DNA of 18,947 nt, from positions 1-18,947 of the IMG/VR virus record IMGVR_UViG_3300045988_012574. The stretch is one strand, 5' to 3'. The notes beneath the pieces are model-generated. The model saw nothing but the letters and a program-made list of their open reading frames with translations, did no database searches and was not told the origin of the DNA. The stretch comes from a virus. The position numbers were made by a program, and so were the translations under genes. Every line of letters starts with the position of its first letter. Positions within the stretch are counted from its first letter, which is position 1. Positions 1 to 18,947 of the stretch are shown here, one piece after another.

Positions 1-110
1 TGGGAGGGGTATGGGTTTGTATGAAGATTTTCCCTTGAGGTTTTTTTTATTTGTGTGTTGTTTTTTTTTGTTCTGTGTGTGTTTTGTCTCTTTGTTTTGT
101 TCATGCCTCT

Positions 111-139
111 ATTATATTTTTTTTACGCCTGTCTGTCAA
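111..139 (-). promoter_or_regulatory. Perfect consensus sigma70-type promoter (TTGACA-N17-TATAAT) firing outward toward the left terminus
   Basis: On the minus strand, TTGACA is at 139..134, followed by a 17-nt spacer and TATAAT at 116..111. The predicted +1 is near 104. Transcription would run off the DNA end at position 1. Confidence 0.6.
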
Positions 140-171
140 GTTTTTTTATTTTGGGCGTGTCGTTTTTTTTA

Positions 172-186
172 TTGACACTGTGTCAA
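172..186. promoter_or_regulatory. 15-bp perfect palindrome TTGACAC-T-GTGTCAA, a candidate operator (mirrored at 18762..18776)
   Basis: The 7-bp arms are exact reverse complements around a single central base. The site lies in the ITR between the outward promoter and the inward early promoter. The embedded TTGACA has no good -10 at 15-18 nt spacing. Confidence 0.4.
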
Positions 187-244: not shown

Positions 245-306
245 TTTGTCTGCCTGGTTGGTGGTTGTCTTTTATTTTTTTTGTTTTGGGGTGTGTCGTT
301 TGTTTG

Positions 307-315
307 TGGTATGAT
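307..315 (+). promoter_or_regulatory. Extended -10 promoter TGgTATGAT at the inner edge of ITR-L, reading inward into the left-end gene
   Basis: tggtatgat at 307..315 lies 35 nt upstream of the ATG at 350. There is no good -35, as is typical for extended -10 promoters. Confidence 0.5.
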
Positions 316-349: not shown

Positions 350-595
350 ATGATGATTTCAAATATGACTCTCAATGAAAAGAATGAACTGCTGACCACT
401 TTGTGGAATGACCCGTCTGTGACGATTCTTGGTGTCAAGGATGGTGTTACGAGTTCGATTGATCGCGATCAGGCCGTTGATGATTATGAGGTAGCTTTGT
501 ATGATTCGTATCGATTCCTTTTGCCTTATGAAACGGATGACGATTTGCTTCTGTTTTCTGCTGAAGACTTGGAAGCGTTTGCTCGGACGTGGTAA
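350..595 (+). CDS. Small acidic early protein (81 aa), function unknown; the only plus-strand gene
   Basis: The ORF follows the purine-rich RBS aagggaaagga (331-341) and the ITR-edge promoter. A bidirectional terminator follows it. I count 17 D/E against 5 K/R. Confidence 0.7.
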   Translation: MMISNMTLNEKNELLTTLWNDPSVTILGVKDGVTSSIDRDQAVDDYEVALYDSYRFLLPYETDDDLLLFSAEDLEAFARTW

Positions 596-12943: not shown

Positions 12944-13231
12944 TTAGTCGAACAAATCTTCGATGGACTCGGTGCCGTCATCGTCTCCGTCGCCGTCATT
13001 GTCGGACGGTGCGGGGTCATTGTAGCCGAGCGTGTCCATCATGGCCTTCAGTCCGGCCAATTCCTTTTCAATCGCGTCAAGGCGTGCGGAAACGTCCGGC
13101 TCCTGCTTCAGATCCGGTTCCGGCTCGGGTTCTTTCGGCTTTACTTCATCGTCCACGGTTTCAGTCTGCTGTTCCTCTTCAGTCGGCGGGGGAGTAGTGG
13201 TTTTCTCGCCGTCATTATCTGGGTCTGCCAT
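12944..13231 (-). CDS. Scaffolding protein candidate (95 aa, very acidic)
   Basis: It lies directly upstream of the capsid gene and is similar in size to phi29 gp7. The central helix is ARLDAIEKELAGLKAMMD. The C-terminal SIEDLFD resembles the gp7 C-terminal TIEDLEAK. The RBS is ggag. Confidence 0.6.
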   Translation of the reverse strand: MADPDNDGEKTTTPPPTEEEQQTETVDDEVKPKEPEPEPDLKQEPDVSARLDAIEKELAGLKAMMDTLGYNDPAPSDNDGDGDDDGTESIEDLFD

Positions 13232-13266: not shown

Positions 13267-13275
13267 ATTATATCA
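13267..13275 (-). promoter_or_regulatory. Extended -10 promoter TGaTATAAT for the structural (late) module
   Basis: The minus strand reads tgatataat at 13275..13267. It is intergenic, just downstream of the terminator at 13316..13283 and 36 nt upstream of the scaffold ATG at 13231. Confidence 0.6.
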
Positions 13276-13282
13276 TGTCGTA

Positions 13283-13316
13283 AGAAAATAAAATGACCCC
13301 GCAATCACGCGGGGTC
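13283..13316 (-). terminator. Intrinsic terminator ending the replication module / small-RNA interval
   Basis: The stem is gaccccgc / gcggggtc (13295..13302 / 13309..13316) with a 6-nt loop. On the minus strand it is followed by auuuuauuuucu. Confidence 0.8.
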
Positions 13317-13452
13317 GAAACGTCCTATGTGAGCGCGAGTTGAAGATCGTAGGGCACTACCGCCACGGTAGTGATGTTCATGATCGGCGGCATTCTCAGC
13401 CGTGGCAGTCCGACCCATGTTGCTCCCAGTCGAAAATCGACGCTCAGAAGAC
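13285..13452 (-). ncRNA. Candidate ~165-nt structured small RNA with its own promoter and terminator (possible pRNA analogue). The alternative reading is a 37-aa micro-ORF at 13305..13418.
   Basis: The interval is bounded by TGcTATAAT (13467..13459) and the terminator (13316..13283). Several helices can be drawn by hand (see finding). No convincing long ORF is present. The 113-aa track ORF here overlaps the polymerase out of frame. Confidence 0.4.
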
Positions 13453-13458
13453 ACAAGT

Positions 13459-13467
13459 ATTATAGCA
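13459..13467 (-). promoter_or_regulatory. Extended -10 box TGcTATAAT overlapping the polymerase stop codon
   Basis: The minus strand reads tgctataat at 13467..13459. The polymerase TAA stop (13462..13460) lies inside the -10 hexamer. Confidence 0.5.
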
Positions 13468-15987: not shown

Positions 15988-16422
15988 TCACTTGGTTTCC
16001 TCGTCCACCGGCTCGATGCTGAAAAACTTGAAGCCACGGCGGGAGCGACGTTCGACCACCTTGATGCACAGCGGTTCCGTCCAGGTGTTCGGCGTGCCGA
16101 AGATGCCGAACATGGTGTTCAGTCCCGCCGCGAGAGTGGGGGAGGTGGCCGCGTACGCCTTGTTATCGTCGGTCACGATGATGACGCGCACGGTGCTGGA
16201 GATTTCGCCCGTCTGATCGTCGGTCACCTGTACCGCCTGGGCGACGGCGTTCGTCATGTTCAACGGCTCGTTGAGGTGTTCGTCAAGCTTTTCGGCGTTC
16301 TGCAATGCACTGTAGAGCTTGATCTTGCCTTCACGGGTCGAGGTATCGATGAAGTGCTGGACGGTGCCAAGTTCGGTGTTCTCGGTGTTGAAAGCGACGA
16401 GTGCGGTATTGTTGTTTTCCAT
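15988..16422 (-). CDS. Single-stranded DNA-binding protein, phi29 p5-like
   Basis: MENNNTALVAFNTENTELG parallels p5 MENTNIVKATFDTETLEG. AVAQAVQVTDDQTGE...TVRVIIVTDDNKAYAATSPTLAAGL parallels AIAQYKQVSDTYGD...TVTTIFAADGSLYSAISKTVAEAA. IKVVERRSRRGFKFFSIE parallels VKVVQGTSSKGNVFFSLQ. The phi29 sequence is from memory. Confidence 0.7.
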   Translation of the reverse strand: MENNNTALVAFNTENTELGTVQHFIDTSTREGKIKLYSALQNAEKLDEHLNEPLNMTNAVAQAVQVTDDQTGEISSTVRVIIVTDDNKAYAATSPTLAAGLNTMFGIFGTPNTWTEPLCIKVVERRSRRGFKFFSIEPVDEETK

Positions 16423-16800: not shown

Positions 16801-17323
16801 TTTTCACTTCCCCTTGCAGTAAGATTTTTTGCAATTCACTGTCATTATATCGTTTCGTGTCCAGTCTGTCAAAATTTTTAAACACGACAATAATCAGTTC
16901 TTCCGCCTGAGGACTATCAAAAACCGTGCAACAATCATACGACGTACCGCCCTTGACCGCGCAGACCGCGCACCATGCAATCAGGTTAGGCGGATCGATG
17001 GAACCGTCCAAATATTCCACGTCATACGTGCGAGACAGTGCGGCGGTAAGTCCGTCCCCCACGGTCAGACCGCCCGCAATCTGAGACACAGTAATCACCG
17101 CTTGCGTAAACCACTCACTAGGAGCTTCACACCACAACTCACACAACATGTTGACAGCACGACAACATGTCTCAAAATCACCATACCCCAGGTCAAAACG
17201 TTTCAAGTTCAGTTCACGCTTATGGCCTTCTGTGGCGCGGACAATACGCTTGCTTTCCATGATCGCATCATCAAAGTCACGCATACAGTAAATAGGACGC
17301 CTATCATCACCACGCCTAAACAT
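16793..17323 (-). CDS. Hypothetical early protein (176 aa from the ATG at 17323), Cys-rich
   Basis: The ATG at 17323 is preceded by gaggag and overlaps the upstream stop (ATGTTTAG). I recognise no motif. Confidence 0.65.
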   Translation of the reverse strand: MFRRGDDRRPIYCMRDFDDAIMESKRIVRATEGHKRELNLKRFDLGYGDFETCCRAVNMLCELWCEAPSEWFTQAVITVSQIAGGLTVGDGLTAALSRTYDVEYLDGSIDPPNLIAWCAVCAVKGGTSYDCCTVFDSPQAEELIIVVFKNFDRLDTKRYNDSELQKILLQGEVKIG

Positions 17324-18358: not shown

Positions 18359-18601
18359 TCAGTGAGTCAAGGCGTCAGCTACCGCTTCCGCGATAGTGTC
18401 CCCAGTTCCCAAGACGACAACAGGACGACAGTGCCTAGCGCAAACGGTATAAAACACCTCAACCGCGTCCACCTTACGCCCATCTTCGGTAGTGCGATAG
18501 TATGGAGTCTCAACCCTCTTGACGCAAGCGCGTGCCATCAATTCACGCACTTCCTCGACACTGACGCCCGCTTCCTCTGCGATTTGCTTATAACTTTCCA
18601 T
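18359..18601 (-). CDS. First early gene: small HTH-like protein (80 aa from the ATG at 18601)
   Basis: The ATG at 18601 is preceded by gggaggtaaataag. The N-terminal YKQIAEEAGVSVEEVRELMAR looks like a helix-turn-helix. The 102-aa track ORF extends back into the promoter region, so I prefer the shorter form. Confidence 0.6.
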   Translation of the reverse strand: MESYKQIAEEAGVSVEEVRELMARACVKRVETPYYRTTEDGRKVDAVEVFYTVCARHCRPVVVLGTGDTIAEAVADALTH

Positions 18602-18632: not shown

Positions 18633-18641
18633 ATCATACCA
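18633..18641 (-). promoter_or_regulatory. Extended -10 promoter TGgTATGAT at the inner edge of ITR-R, driving the right-end early operon
   Basis: It is the mirror copy of 307..315 and lies about 32 nt upstream of the ATG at 18601. Confidence 0.5.
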
Positions 18642-18808
18642 CAAACAAACGACACACCCCAAAACAAAAAAAATAAAAGACAACCACCAACCAGGCAGAC
18701 AAATAAGCTACGGTTACGTTACCGTAACTTAGACACACACAGACTGTTGCATATACAACCATTGACACAGTGTCAATAAAAAAAACGACACGCCCAAAAT
18801 AAAAAAAC

Positions 18809-18837
18809 TTGACAGACAGGCGTAAAAAAAATATAAT
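18809..18837 (+). promoter_or_regulatory. Perfect consensus sigma70-type promoter (TTGACA-N17-TATAAT) firing outward toward the right terminus
   Basis: On the plus strand, TTGACA is at 18809..18814, the spacer gacaggcgtaaaaaaaa is 17 nt, and TATAAT is at 18832..18837. The predicted +1 at 18844 is the A of an ATG. Confidence 0.6.
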
Positions 18838-18947
18838 AGAGGCATGAACAAAACAAAGAGACAAAACACACACAGAACAAAAAAAAACAACACACAAATA
18901 AAAAAAACCTCAAGGGAAAATCTTCATACAAACCCATACCCCTCCCA

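What the first reader, a model, noticed from the sequence alone, without database searches (positions are those of the whole stretch)
18809..18947. Perfect consensus promoter in each ITR fires outward at the genome terminus; the predicted +1 is the A of a stop-less AUG frame
Seen in the sequence:
- TTGACA-17 nt-TATAAT with no mismatch is present at 18809..18837 (+) and mirrored at 139..111 (-).
- It is the best promoter match in the genome, and it points away from all genes, toward the DNA end about 104 nt away.
- The canonical +1, 7 nt after the -10, falls on A18844 of an ATG.
- That frame (MNKTKRQNTHRTKKNNTQIKKTSRENLHTNPYPS..) stays open to the last base with no stop codon.
- The run-off RNA would be almost pure A/C and essentially unstructured.

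Established knowledge: a 12/12 consensus match is very improbable by chance. In phi29, promoter A1 also fires toward the left end, but it makes the structured pRNA, which this A/C-rich RNA does not resemble.

Inference, as candidate roles:
- Transcriptional opening or activation of the protein-primed origin.
- Clearing or remodelling nucleoprotein at the ends.
- A leaderless non-stop mRNA giving a very basic peptide (or engaging ribosome-rescue pathways).
- An RNA polymerase sink.

I know of no described equivalent for small protein-primed phages.
Basis: partly seen in the sequence, partly recalled or inferred. Interest (0 to 1): 0.72.

Follow-up and report, generated by a model that had tools for sequence, protein, structure and literature searches.

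The report
Outward consensus promoter in phage ITRs
Each inverted terminal repeat of this small Bifidobacterium phage carries a perfect, evolutionarily conserved host-type promoter that fires the last ~104 bases toward the protein-capped DNA end, making a non-coding RNA; the same layout is already annotated but unexplained in two other phage lineages, Cp-1 and asccphi28.

Summary
The sequence observation holds. TTGACA-17-TATAAT lies at 18809-18837 (+) and 139-111 (-), pointing at ends 104 nt from the predicted start. It is not uniquely the best promoter: a third 12/12 site at 16872-16844 (-) drives the replication operon.

The window is a phi29-like, protein-primed Bifidobacterium podophage, about 80% identical to phage BP1. 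Across roughly 26-30 distinct related ITRs, both hexamers and the 17-nt spacing are almost invariant. The 5' spacer and the start region vary freely. That pattern fits selection for a sigma-A promoter.

The ATG at +1 occurs in only 10 of 26 genomes and shows no codon periodicity, so the non-stop peptide is a by-product of composition. The RNA is unstructured and has no Rfam match.

The promoter is dispensable in places. Two genomes have it disrupted at both ends, one carries a weakened -10, and sister clades with similar A/C-rich ITRs lack it.

"No described equivalent" is wrong. GenBank records of Streptococcus phage Cp-1 (also Cp-7, and unannotated Cp-5) and Lactococcus phage asccphi28 hold outward 12/12 promoters inside their ITRs. 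phi29 promoter A1 is also 12/12.

Best reading: a real promoter whose end-directed transcription, not its RNA, is the selected function. That function is untested.

The parts
18809..18814 (+). -35 hexamer TTGACA of the outward promoter (P_out), right ITR
   Evidence: Mean pairwise identity is 0.974 across 26 related ITRs.
18815..18831 (+). 17-nt spacer: a variable 9-nt 5' part (GACAGGCGT) followed by a conserved A8 run
   Evidence: The spacer is 17 nt in all relatives that keep the promoter. The 5' part has identity 0.525 and the A-run 0.957.
18832..18837 (+). -10 hexamer TATAAT of P_out, right ITR
   Evidence: Identity is 0.938. Natural variants are TACAAT, TATAAC and TCTAAC.
18797..18807 (+). 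A-rich tract directly upstream of the -35, resembling an UP element
   Evidence: The AAAATAAAAAAA columns are nearly invariant. UP-element function is inferred, not tested.
18844..18947 (+). Predicted 104-nt run-off RNA (A/C-rich, unstructured). It overlaps the conserved terminal ~75 nt, presumed to be the protein-primed origin
   Evidence: Fold: -3.5 kcal/mol, z -0.48. No Rfam match. Positions +29 to the end have identity 0.92-0.94, and +13..+28 only 0.65. The ATG at 18844 is not conserved.
111..139 (-). Mirror copy of P_out in the left ITR (-35 at 139..134, -10 at 116..111), with predicted RNA 104..1
18785..18794 (+). Nearly invariant motif ACGACACGCC upstream of P_out. A second copy, ACGACACACC, is at 18649-18658; mirror copies are at 154-163 and 290-299 (-)
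   Evidence: Identity 0.992. The only four exact matches in the window are these ITR copies; allowing one mismatch gives 10 sites against 3.67 expected. The motif core CGACACGCC also occurs in the BadAztec1 ITR. Likely a regulator site shared with the inward promoter (inference).
18704..18776 (+). Optional palindrome module of the 'long' ITR type. It holds a hairpin or near-palindrome at 18704-18731, GTTGCATATACAAC at 18746-18759 and TTGACACAGTGTCAA at 18762-18776
   Evidence: The module is absent from 'short' ITRs (BP1, L038, L062, L093, L105, L037, L053), where P_out lies back-to-back with the inward promoter.
18633..18641 (-). Inward early promoter with extended -10 (TGGTATGAT) at the inner ITR edge. 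It drives the first right-end gene (ATG at 18601). The left-end copy is at 307-315 (+) and drives gene 350-595
   Evidence: Read from the sequence. It lies inside the ITR and is conserved as TGnTATGAT or TGnTATAGT in relatives.
16844..16872 (-). Third 12/12 promoter (P_main), in front of the SSB / putative terminal protein / DNA polymerase operon. Included for comparison
   Evidence: It is 12/12 in BP1 and in many IMG/VR relatives.

Best explanation
P_out is a genuine promoter for the host housekeeping sigma factor, kept by selection in both ITRs of one clade of phi29-like, protein-primed Bifidobacterium podophages. It sends host RNA polymerase over the last ~104 bp to the protein-capped end and yields a short, unstructured, non-coding A/C-rich run-off RNA. 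The ATG and open frame are by-products of T-poor composition.

It is the counterpart of outward, perfect-consensus promoters near the termini of phi29 (A1), Cp-1/Cp-5/Cp-7 and asccphi28. The RNAs made from these promoters have nothing in common, and sister clades without the promoter have equally A/C-rich ITRs. I therefore infer that the act of end-directed transcription, or polymerase occupancy, is the selected function rather than the RNA.

The most likely mechanism is transient opening or remodelling of the terminal origin. The template for P_out is the strand whose 5' end carries the terminal protein. Transcription therefore unpairs the 3'-ending strand, which is the template for protein-primed initiation.

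Shown: the sequence, its conservation pattern, the geometry, and the non-coding, unstructured RNA. Inferred: promoter activity in vivo and any effect on replication.
For: - The match is exact and not a chance event.
- The Bifidobacterium vegetative promoter consensus is TTGACA/TATAAT with an optimal 17-bp spacer, and closeness to consensus tracks expression (PMC5746004).
- In 26 aligned ITRs the identities are: -35 0.974, -10 0.938, adjacent 5' spacer 0.525, start region 0.60. At least 12 different spacers flank unchanged hexamers, and the spacer is always 17 nt. Six further metagenome contigs are 12/12 or 11/12.
- The RNA is unstructured, has no Rfam family, and has no antisense target in the phage beyond 9-10 nt.
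- The ORF is not conserved.
- Sister clades keep A/C-rich ITRs without the promoter.
- Outward 12/12 promoters recur independently: in the ITRs of Cp-1/5/7 and asccphi28, and as phi29 A1.
- Unpaired ends raise use of the phi29 origin up to 30-fold, and phi29 needs protein p6 to unwind its ends (PMC4974454). No p6-like Pfam or PHROG hit was found among the 10 small, early-region and unannotated proteins scanned.
Against: - There is no expression data. The start site is predicted only.
- Two relatives have the promoter disrupted at both ends: L005 has the -35 deleted and L041 has -10 TCTAAC. L093 carries TATAAC, an 11/12 match that has lost the critical last T of the -10. Sister clades replicate without the promoter. 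It is therefore not essential.
- Outward transcription would meet incoming replication forks head-on.
- GC skew on the non-template strand is negative, which disfavours stable R-loops.
- phi29's outward promoter has a known RNA-product function (pRNA), so the comparative argument for a cis role is not clean.
- Seven lineages sampled outside the close relatives show no outward promoter: 44AHJD, Mycoplasma P1, PRD1, BadAztec1, Av-1, Ayka and Mendel. The first 600 nt of GA-1, an Enterococcus phage and a Microbacterium phage also showed none.
Confidence: 0.45

Rival explanations
1. The RNA product is the function. It would be an abundant small RNA acting in trans, for example as a packaging-RNA analogue like phi29 pRNA, or as a decoy or sponge for a host RNA-binding factor.
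For: - phi29 A1, the positional counterpart, makes pRNA.
- The packaging ATPase and the connector are of the phi29 type: PF05894 at 3.7e-45 and PF05352 at 1.6e-39.
- Positions +4..+12 and the last ~75 nt of the RNA are conserved.
Against: - The RNA has essentially no structure: -3.5 kcal/mol, z -0.48.
- There is no RF00044 hit, although the phi29 control scores 145 bits.
- Terminal conservation is explained equally well by origin function, and it persists in genomes with a dead promoter.
- A/C-rich termini exist without the promoter.
- A much better structured-RNA candidate lies elsewhere, at 13287-13453 (-), with 13 covarying pairs.
Confidence: 0.2
2. The promoter acts as a regulatory partner of the divergent inward early promoter, or as a polymerase sink. 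Strong outward initiation would set local negative supercoiling or compete for polymerase or a shared regulator (the ACGACACGCC sites). That would tune early gene expression at a free DNA end, or titrate host polymerase as genome copy number rises.
For: - In 'short' ITRs P_out sits about 70 bp back-to-back with the inward extended -10 promoter, with two nearly invariant ACGACACGCC motifs between them.
- The inward promoter lacks a -35, so it is a candidate for activation.
- Cp-1 and asccphi28 show the same divergent layout.
Against: - The distance to the inward promoter varies from about 70 to about 200 bp, and more in L064 with its tandem duplications. The distance to the end is fixed.
- A 104-nt run-off recycles polymerase quickly, so it makes a poor sink.
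- No regulator has been identified.
Confidence: 0.2
3. The RNA is a leaderless non-stop mRNA that yields a very basic peptide or engages ribosome rescue.
For: - In the window the predicted +1 is the A of an ATG, and the frame is open to the end.
- One distant relative (L077) has AAGGAGG, 7 nt, then ATG, with a frame open to its end.
Against: - The ATG is present in only 10 of 26 ITRs.
- Nine of the 26 have no ATG, GTG or TTG anywhere in the run-off RNA (three of those contigs stop short of the terminus).
- There is no codon-position pattern: 0.138, 0.102 and 0.145.
- T-poor sequence lacks stop codons by composition.
Confidence: 0.03
4. The site is a neutral or accidental promoter-like sequence, for example a relic copy of the main early promoter or an A-tract bending element, with no selected transcriptional role.
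For: - It is 72% similar over 36 nt to the region around 16844-16879.
- It has been lost or damaged in a few genomes and is absent from sister clades.
Against: - The hexamers and spacing are held constant while the flanking spacer and start region diverge across about 26-30 ITRs.
- The same architecture recurs independently in three other lineages.
Confidence: 0.07

Closest known systems
Outward -35/-10 signals in the 236-bp ITRs of Streptococcus phage Cp-1 (GenBank NC_001825/Z47794), conserved in Cp-5 and Cp-7
   Same: - A protein-primed podophage with long ITRs.
- A 12/12 TTGACA/TATAAT promoter inside each ITR, pointing at the terminus about 150 nt away.
- It lies divergent from the inward early promoters.
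- The hexamers are kept while the spacer changes in Cp-7.
- The record annotates no terminator and no start site for it.
   Different: - No sequence similarity to the window's ITR.
- 16-nt spacer with a TGn extended -10.
- The run-off RNA is G/A/U-rich rather than A/C-rich.
- The host is a Firmicute.
- Its function is, to my knowledge, also unestablished. The original paper could not be read here.
Putative promoters P1/P8 with terminators T1/T4 in the 577-bp ITRs of Lactococcus phage asccphi28 (NC_010363)
   Same: An outward 12/12 promoter (TTGACA-17-TATAAT) in each ITR of a phi29-like phage.
   Different: - It lies about 370 nt from the end.
- Its ~340-366-nt RNA is significantly structured (z -3.27) and ends at an annotated terminator near the terminus.
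- It carries an extended -10 (TGg).
phi29 early promoter A1 and prohead RNA (Rfam RF00044)
   Same: A perfect-consensus early promoter close to a genome end, firing toward that end, in a protein-primed podophage with the same type of packaging ATPase and connector.
   Different: - A1 is at the left end only and outside the 6-bp ITR.
- Its product is a 174-nt structured RNA that ends 147 nt before the terminus and is needed for packaging (PMC11476376).
- The window RNA is unstructured, runs off the end and has no RF00044 match.
Transcription elements as auxiliary origin components: NFI/Oct-1 sites in adenovirus ITRs, and transcriptional activation of ori-lambda, T7 and T4 origins (recalled from memory, not tested here)
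   Same: Recognition sites for the transcription machinery sit next to an origin. In adenovirus they sit inside the ITR of a protein-primed genome and stimulate initiation.
   Different: - No homology.
- Adenovirus needs factor binding, not transcription.
- The phage and plasmid examples are not protein-primed.
- Any effect on this origin is hypothetical.
phi29 protein p6 nucleoprotein complex at the genome ends
   Same: It is the known solution to the same problem, unwinding the duplex end so that the terminal protein-polymerase complex can reach the 3' template (PMC4974454).
   Different: It is a protein-based mechanism. No p6-like protein was recognised among the 10 proteins scanned here.

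Membership tests
Housekeeping sigma-70/sigma-A promoter | -35 TTGACA and -10 TATAAT hexamers | tested here: met
   12/12 at both ITR copies.
Housekeeping sigma-70/sigma-A promoter | Spacer of 17 +/- 1 bp that matches the host optimum | tested here: met
   17 nt in the window and in every relative that keeps the promoter. The B. breve optimum is 17 bp (PMC5746004).
Housekeeping sigma-70/sigma-A promoter | Conservation concentrated on the hexamers | tested here: met
   Identity 0.974 and 0.938 for the hexamers, against 0.525 for the 5' spacer and 0.60 for the start region.
Housekeeping sigma-70/sigma-A promoter | Experimentally mapped transcription start and activity | not testable with these tools
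   No transcript data were available.
phi29 prohead RNA (RF00044) | Match to the covariance model | tested here: not met
   No hit at E<=1 in the window. The phi29 control scores 145 bits.
phi29 prohead RNA (RF00044) | Stable three-way-junction fold | tested here: not met
   MFE -3.5 kcal/mol, z -0.48.
phi29 prohead RNA (RF00044) | Strong early promoter near a genome end, firing toward it | tested here: met
ITR-borne outward promoter of the Cp-1 / asccphi28 type | Lies inside both ITR copies and points at the terminus | tested here: met
   compared.
ITR-borne outward promoter of the Cp-1 / asccphi28 type | Full consensus hexamers conserved among close relatives | tested here: met
   Window clade. 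Cp-1/5/7.
ITR-borne outward promoter of the Cp-1 / asccphi28 type | Sequence homology of the ITRs (common descent) | tested here: not met
   BLAST searches of the phage collection with the whole window and with the Cp-1 ITR did not retrieve each other's lineage. The ITRs also differ in strand composition and in -10 type. The resemblance is architectural.
Leaderless non-stop mRNA | Start codon at the 5' end conserved among relatives | tested here: not met
   10 of 26 have it, and 9 of 26 have no start codon at all, three of those on contigs that stop short of the terminus.
Leaderless non-stop mRNA | Codon-periodic substitution pattern | tested here: not met
   0.138, 0.102 and 0.145 at codon positions 1, 2 and 3.
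Auxiliary origin element of a protein-primed replicon (adenovirus-ITR type) | Stimulates protein-primed initiation in cis | not testable with these tools
   Only the geometry is shown: the non-template strand of P_out is the 3' replication template.

The most novel reading that the evidence does not exclude
End-directed transcription from a maximal-strength promoter inside the ITR is a general, overlooked auxiliary element of protein-primed origins in phi29-like phages with long ITRs (the Bifidobacterium clade, Cp-1-like phages, asccphi28). Host RNA polymerase running into the capped end would unpair the 3' template strand and so do the job that protein p6 does in phi29. phi29 A1 may be a specialised descendant of such an element.
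Probability: 0.2. Interest if true: 0.75.

Novelty: new member of a known kind. Interest (0 to 1): 0.5.

Why it matters
How protein-primed origins are opened and timed is understood mainly for phi29 (protein p6) and adenovirus (NFI/Oct-1). A perfect host promoter aimed at the genome end now appears in four separate lineages of small protein-primed phages. For three of them no function has ever been shown. This suggests that transcription toward the terminus is itself under selection.

The idea is directly testable. Host-phage pairs exist in culture: BP1 with B. pseudocatenulatum, and Cp-1 with S. pneumoniae. Natural knock-out alleles are already in hand. These phages are also among the few lytic phages of bifidobacteria and are common in gut metagenomes.

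Practically, the result warns that the 'non-stop ORF' is an artefact of composition.

Tried and rejected
- Rfam scan of the whole window at E<=1: only three weak chance-level hits and no pRNA.
- Pfam and PHROG scans of 10 small, early-region and unannotated proteins: no p6-like or regulator family. The only hit was a sub-threshold Sigma70_r4 helix-turn-helix in the first right-end gene.
- Search for an antisense target of the run-off RNA in the rest of the genome: at most 9-10 nt of complementarity, which is chance level.
- Outward-promoter scan in Av-1, BadAztec1, Ayka, Mendel, 44AHJD, Mycoplasma P1, PRD1, GA-1, an Enterococcus phage and a Microbacterium phage: none found at 10/12 or better near the ends. 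For GA-1 and the last two only the first 600 nt were examined.
- The original Cp-1, asccphi28 and Streptomyces 'telomere promoter' papers are not held in the library. What their authors concluded is not cited.
- The BD811P1-3 GenBank records lack the ITR ends, so they could not be used for this question.
- I considered a link between P_out and the sigma-region-4-like gene and rejected it. BP1 keeps P_out but has a different gene at that position.
- I considered transcription-driven genome internalisation and rejected it. An outward promoter moves polymerase toward DNA that has already entered the cell.

Full report
**What the window is.** The 18,947-bp window is a complete linear genome with 336-nt inverted terminal repeats. 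Its closest GenBank relative is Bifidobacterium phage BP1, about 80% identical over 83% of the length, followed by BD811P1-3.

It encodes four hallmark phi29-type proteins:
- a packaging ATPase (PF05894);
- a connector (PF05352);
- a phi29-type SSB (PF17427);
- a protein-priming family-B DNA polymerase (PF03175).

Almost all genes lie on the minus strand. One small gene at each end is read inward from an extended -10 promoter at the inner ITR edge. These are TGGTATGAT at 307-315 (+) and 18641-18633 (-).

The ends are real physical termini. In the BP1 record an Illumina adapter follows the homologous ...CACCTCCCAC directly, and several independent contigs stop at ...CCCCTCCCAC.

**Checking the observation.** Every stated coordinate is right.
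- TTGACA is at 18809-18814, followed by 17 nt, and TATAAT is at 18832-18837 (+). The mirror copy is at 139..111 (-).
- Allowing one mismatch, shuffles give 0.06 sites on average. Three perfect sites were found.
- The rule-of-thumb +1 (18844) is the A of an ATG. Its frame gives the stated 34-residue basic peptide with no stop.
- The 104-nt RNA has an MFE of -3.5 kcal/mol and z -0.48.

One correction is needed. A third 12/12 promoter at 16872..16844 (-) precedes the SSB / putative terminal protein / polymerase operon, and it is equally conserved in relatives. The ITR promoter ties for best rather than being unique.

**Is it a promoter under selection?** I collected relatives in three ways:
- via the packaging ATPase: 219 IMG/VR contigs, of which 80 were fetched;
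- via a conserved terminal motif in IMG/VR;
- via the same motif in metagenomes.

About 26-30 distinct ITR ends cover the region. In the 26-sequence alignment the mean pairwise identities are as follows:

| Segment | Identity |
|---|---|
| -35 hexamer | 0.974 |
| first 9 nt of the spacer | 0.525 |
| A-run of the spacer | 0.957 |
| -10 hexamer | 0.938 |
| discriminator and start | 0.60 |
| +13..+28 | 0.65 |
| last ~75 nt | 0.92-0.94 |

The spacer is always 17 nt. At least a dozen different spacer sequences flank unchanged hexamers. The published Bifidobacterium vegetative consensus is exactly TTGACA/TATAAT with a 17-bp optimum, and closeness to consensus tracks expression (PMC5746004). This is the signature expected of a functional sigma-A promoter.

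**Exceptions.** Single-mismatch alleles occur: TACAAT in three lineages, TTAACA in two, and TATAAC in one. Two genomes carry a disrupted promoter at both ends, with otherwise conserved ITRs:
- L005 has a deletion of the -35 and spacer between two A-runs;
- L041 has -10 TCTAAC.

Sister clades whose ATPase is 86-90% identical have equally A/C-rich ITRs and similar terminal architecture, but no outward promoter. The element is therefore beneficial but not essential. The A/C-rich composition of the RNA is a property of the ITR, not something created for the RNA.

**The ORF.** The ATG at +1 is present in 10 of 26 ITRs. The others read ATA, GTA, TTA, AGA, CAA or ACA at that position, and 9 of the 26 have no ATG, GTG or TTG anywhere in the run-off RNA (three of those contigs stop short of the terminus). 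Substitutions are spread evenly over the three codon positions: 0.138, 0.102 and 0.145. An open frame is what T-poor sequence gives by default. The leaderless non-stop peptide reading is rejected for the clade.

**The RNA.** It is unstructured, matches no Rfam family, and has no complementary target in the phage beyond 9-10 nt.

A far better structured-RNA candidate lies elsewhere, on the minus strand between the polymerase stop and the late genes.
- A conserved extended -10, TGCTATAAT, sits at 13467..13459.
- It is followed by an RNA of about 165 nt that ends at the terminator 13316..13295.
- The fold is -63.2 kcal/mol with z -2.8.
- On 20 distinct relatives, 97.7% of cells are paired and 13 pairs show compensatory changes. 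Slid controls give 0-3.

If these phages have a packaging-RNA analogue, this is the more plausible one. That weakens any pRNA-like role for the ITR transcript.

**Known equivalents.**
- The Cp-1 GenBank record annotates a -35 (172-177) and a -10 (150-155) on the minus strand of the left ITR, with mirror copies in the right ITR.
- The Cp-1 sequence is TTGACA-16-TATAAT with a TGn extension, about 150 nt from the end.
- It is 12/12 in Cp-5 and Cp-7 as well, although the Cp-7 ITR is only 83% identical and its spacer differs.
- The asccphi28 record annotates outward promoters P1 and P8 and terminators T1 and T4 in its 577-bp ITRs. That promoter is also 12/12 with a 17-nt spacer, and its RNA is structured, z -3.27.
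- phi29 A1, which makes pRNA, is likewise TTGACA-17-TATAAT.

No outward promoter was found in Av-1, BadAztec1, Ayka, Mendel, 44AHJD, Mycoplasma P1 or PRD1, nor in the first 600 nt of GA-1, an Enterococcus phage and a Microbacterium phage. The window's feature is therefore a new member of an annotated but functionally unexplained kind.

**Mechanism.** What the four lineages share is the promoter: maximal strength, early type, pointing at the end. Their RNAs are A/C-rich and unstructured, G/A/U-rich, structured with a terminator, or pRNA. Together with the promoter-less A/C-rich sister ITRs, this points to the act of transcription, or polymerase occupancy, as the selected function.

The geometry fits origin opening. 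The template strand of P_out carries the terminal protein at its 5' end. The strand that transcription unpairs is the 3'-ending strand copied in protein-primed initiation. In phi29, unpaired ends raise origin use up to 30-fold, and protein p6 normally provides the unwinding (PMC4974454). No p6-like protein was recognised among the 10 proteins scanned here.

This step is inference. Four points count against it:
- the natural knock-outs and the promoter-less sister clades;
- the expected head-on conflict with replication forks;
- the negative GC skew of the non-template strand, which disfavours stable R-loops;
- the fact that phi29's own outward promoter does have an RNA-product function.

A regulatory or topological partnership with the divergent inward promoter is the main rival. 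In 'short' ITRs the two promoters sit about 70 bp back-to-back, separated by two nearly invariant ACGACACGCC motifs.

**Verdict.** The promoter is very likely real and selected. The non-stop ORF is a composition artefact. The architecture is already annotated in Cp-1 and asccphi28. The function is unknown; end-directed transcription acting in cis is the best-supported hypothesis, with moderate confidence. The recurrence across lineages makes it a worthwhile and readily testable question.

Noticed in passing
window 13287-13467 (-): A conserved structured non-coding RNA gene lies between the DNA polymerase stop and the late genes.
- Extended -10 TGCTATAAT at 13467..13459, overlapping the polymerase stop codon.
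- An RNA of about 165 nt with a closing helix and a three-way junction.
- Intrinsic terminator at 13316..13295.
- MFE -63.2 kcal/mol, z -2.8.
- On 20 relatives, 97.7% of cells are paired and 13 pairs show compensatory changes.
- A possible GCCAC/GUGGC loop-loop contact has one compensatory change and two breaks.
- No Rfam family matches.
It is a candidate packaging-RNA analogue.
   Followed up: partly
L303 (Cp-1) 150-177 (-) and 19166-19193 (+); L304 (Cp-7); L305 (Cp-5); L306/L310 (asccphi28) 373-401 (-) and 18362-18390 (+): Outward 12/12 consensus promoters sit inside the ITRs of pneumococcal Cp-1-like phages and of Lactococcus phage asccphi28. They are annotated in GenBank (Cp-1, Cp-7, asccphi28) but carry no start site or function. 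This is the same architecture as the finding.
   Followed up: partly
window 16844-16872 (-): A third perfect-consensus promoter sits in front of the replication-gene operon, which starts at TTG 16800. It is 12/12 in BP1 and many relatives. In relatives its spacer contains ACGACACG, the core of the ITR motif.
   Followed up: partly
window 18785-18794, 18649-18658 (+); 154-163, 290-299 (-); L122 (BadAztec1) ITR: The motif ACGACAC(G/A)CC is the most conserved element of the ITR (identity 0.992). It occurs twice per ITR, between the outward and inward promoters, and overlaps the -35 position of the inward promoter. Its core CGACACGCC recurs in the ITR of the distant BadAztec1. It is probably a regulator site.
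   Followed up: partly
window 18704-18776 (+) and mirror 172-244; L064: ITRs come in two forms. The 'long' form carries an inserted module with three palindromes: ACGGTTACGT(A/T)ACCGT, GTTGCATATACAAC and TTGACACAGTGTCAA. The 'short' form (BP1 and others) lacks it. Contig L064 shows tandem duplications of the module.
   Followed up: no
L001 (BP1, PQ571273) 1-292 and 19463: The BP1 GenBank record appears chimeric at its left end. About 292 nt of unrelated sequence plus an Illumina adapter precede the true terminus. Its right ITR is truncated 23 nt after the -10.
   Followed up: partly
window 18947 and 1; L005, L070, L105, L046, L246: Relatives end in ...CCCCTCCCAC, so the window probably lacks at least the last base at each end. 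Two contigs extend further, with ...CCCACCTCCCTCC and ...CCCACTCCTG. A 3'-CAC... terminus would allow a 2-nt jump-back during protein-primed initiation, which is speculative.
   Followed up: no
L077, last ~115 nt: A more distant relative lacks the outward promoter. Instead it has a strong ribosome-binding site (AAGGAGG), 7 nt, then an ATG whose frame stays open to the genome end (MQNNKKTTNKKTKTKK...). No convincing promoter lies upstream. Only one example was seen.
   Followed up: no
window 18359-18601 (-): The first gene at the right end (80 aa) has a sub-threshold match to the Sigma-70 region 4 helix-turn-helix, E 2.5e-4. It is a possible small DNA-binding early regulator. BP1 has a different gene at this position.
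   Followed up: partly
window 13267-13275 (-): A likely late promoter, extended -10 TGATATAAT, lies directly after the early-operon terminator and before the RBS and ATG at 13231. ATGATAT is conserved in all 20 relatives.
   Followed up: no
L123 (Av-1, NC_009643) 16295-16402 (+): The Av-1 record annotates a 'packaging RNA' pointing toward its right end. It has no RF00044 match at E<=1.
   Followed up: no
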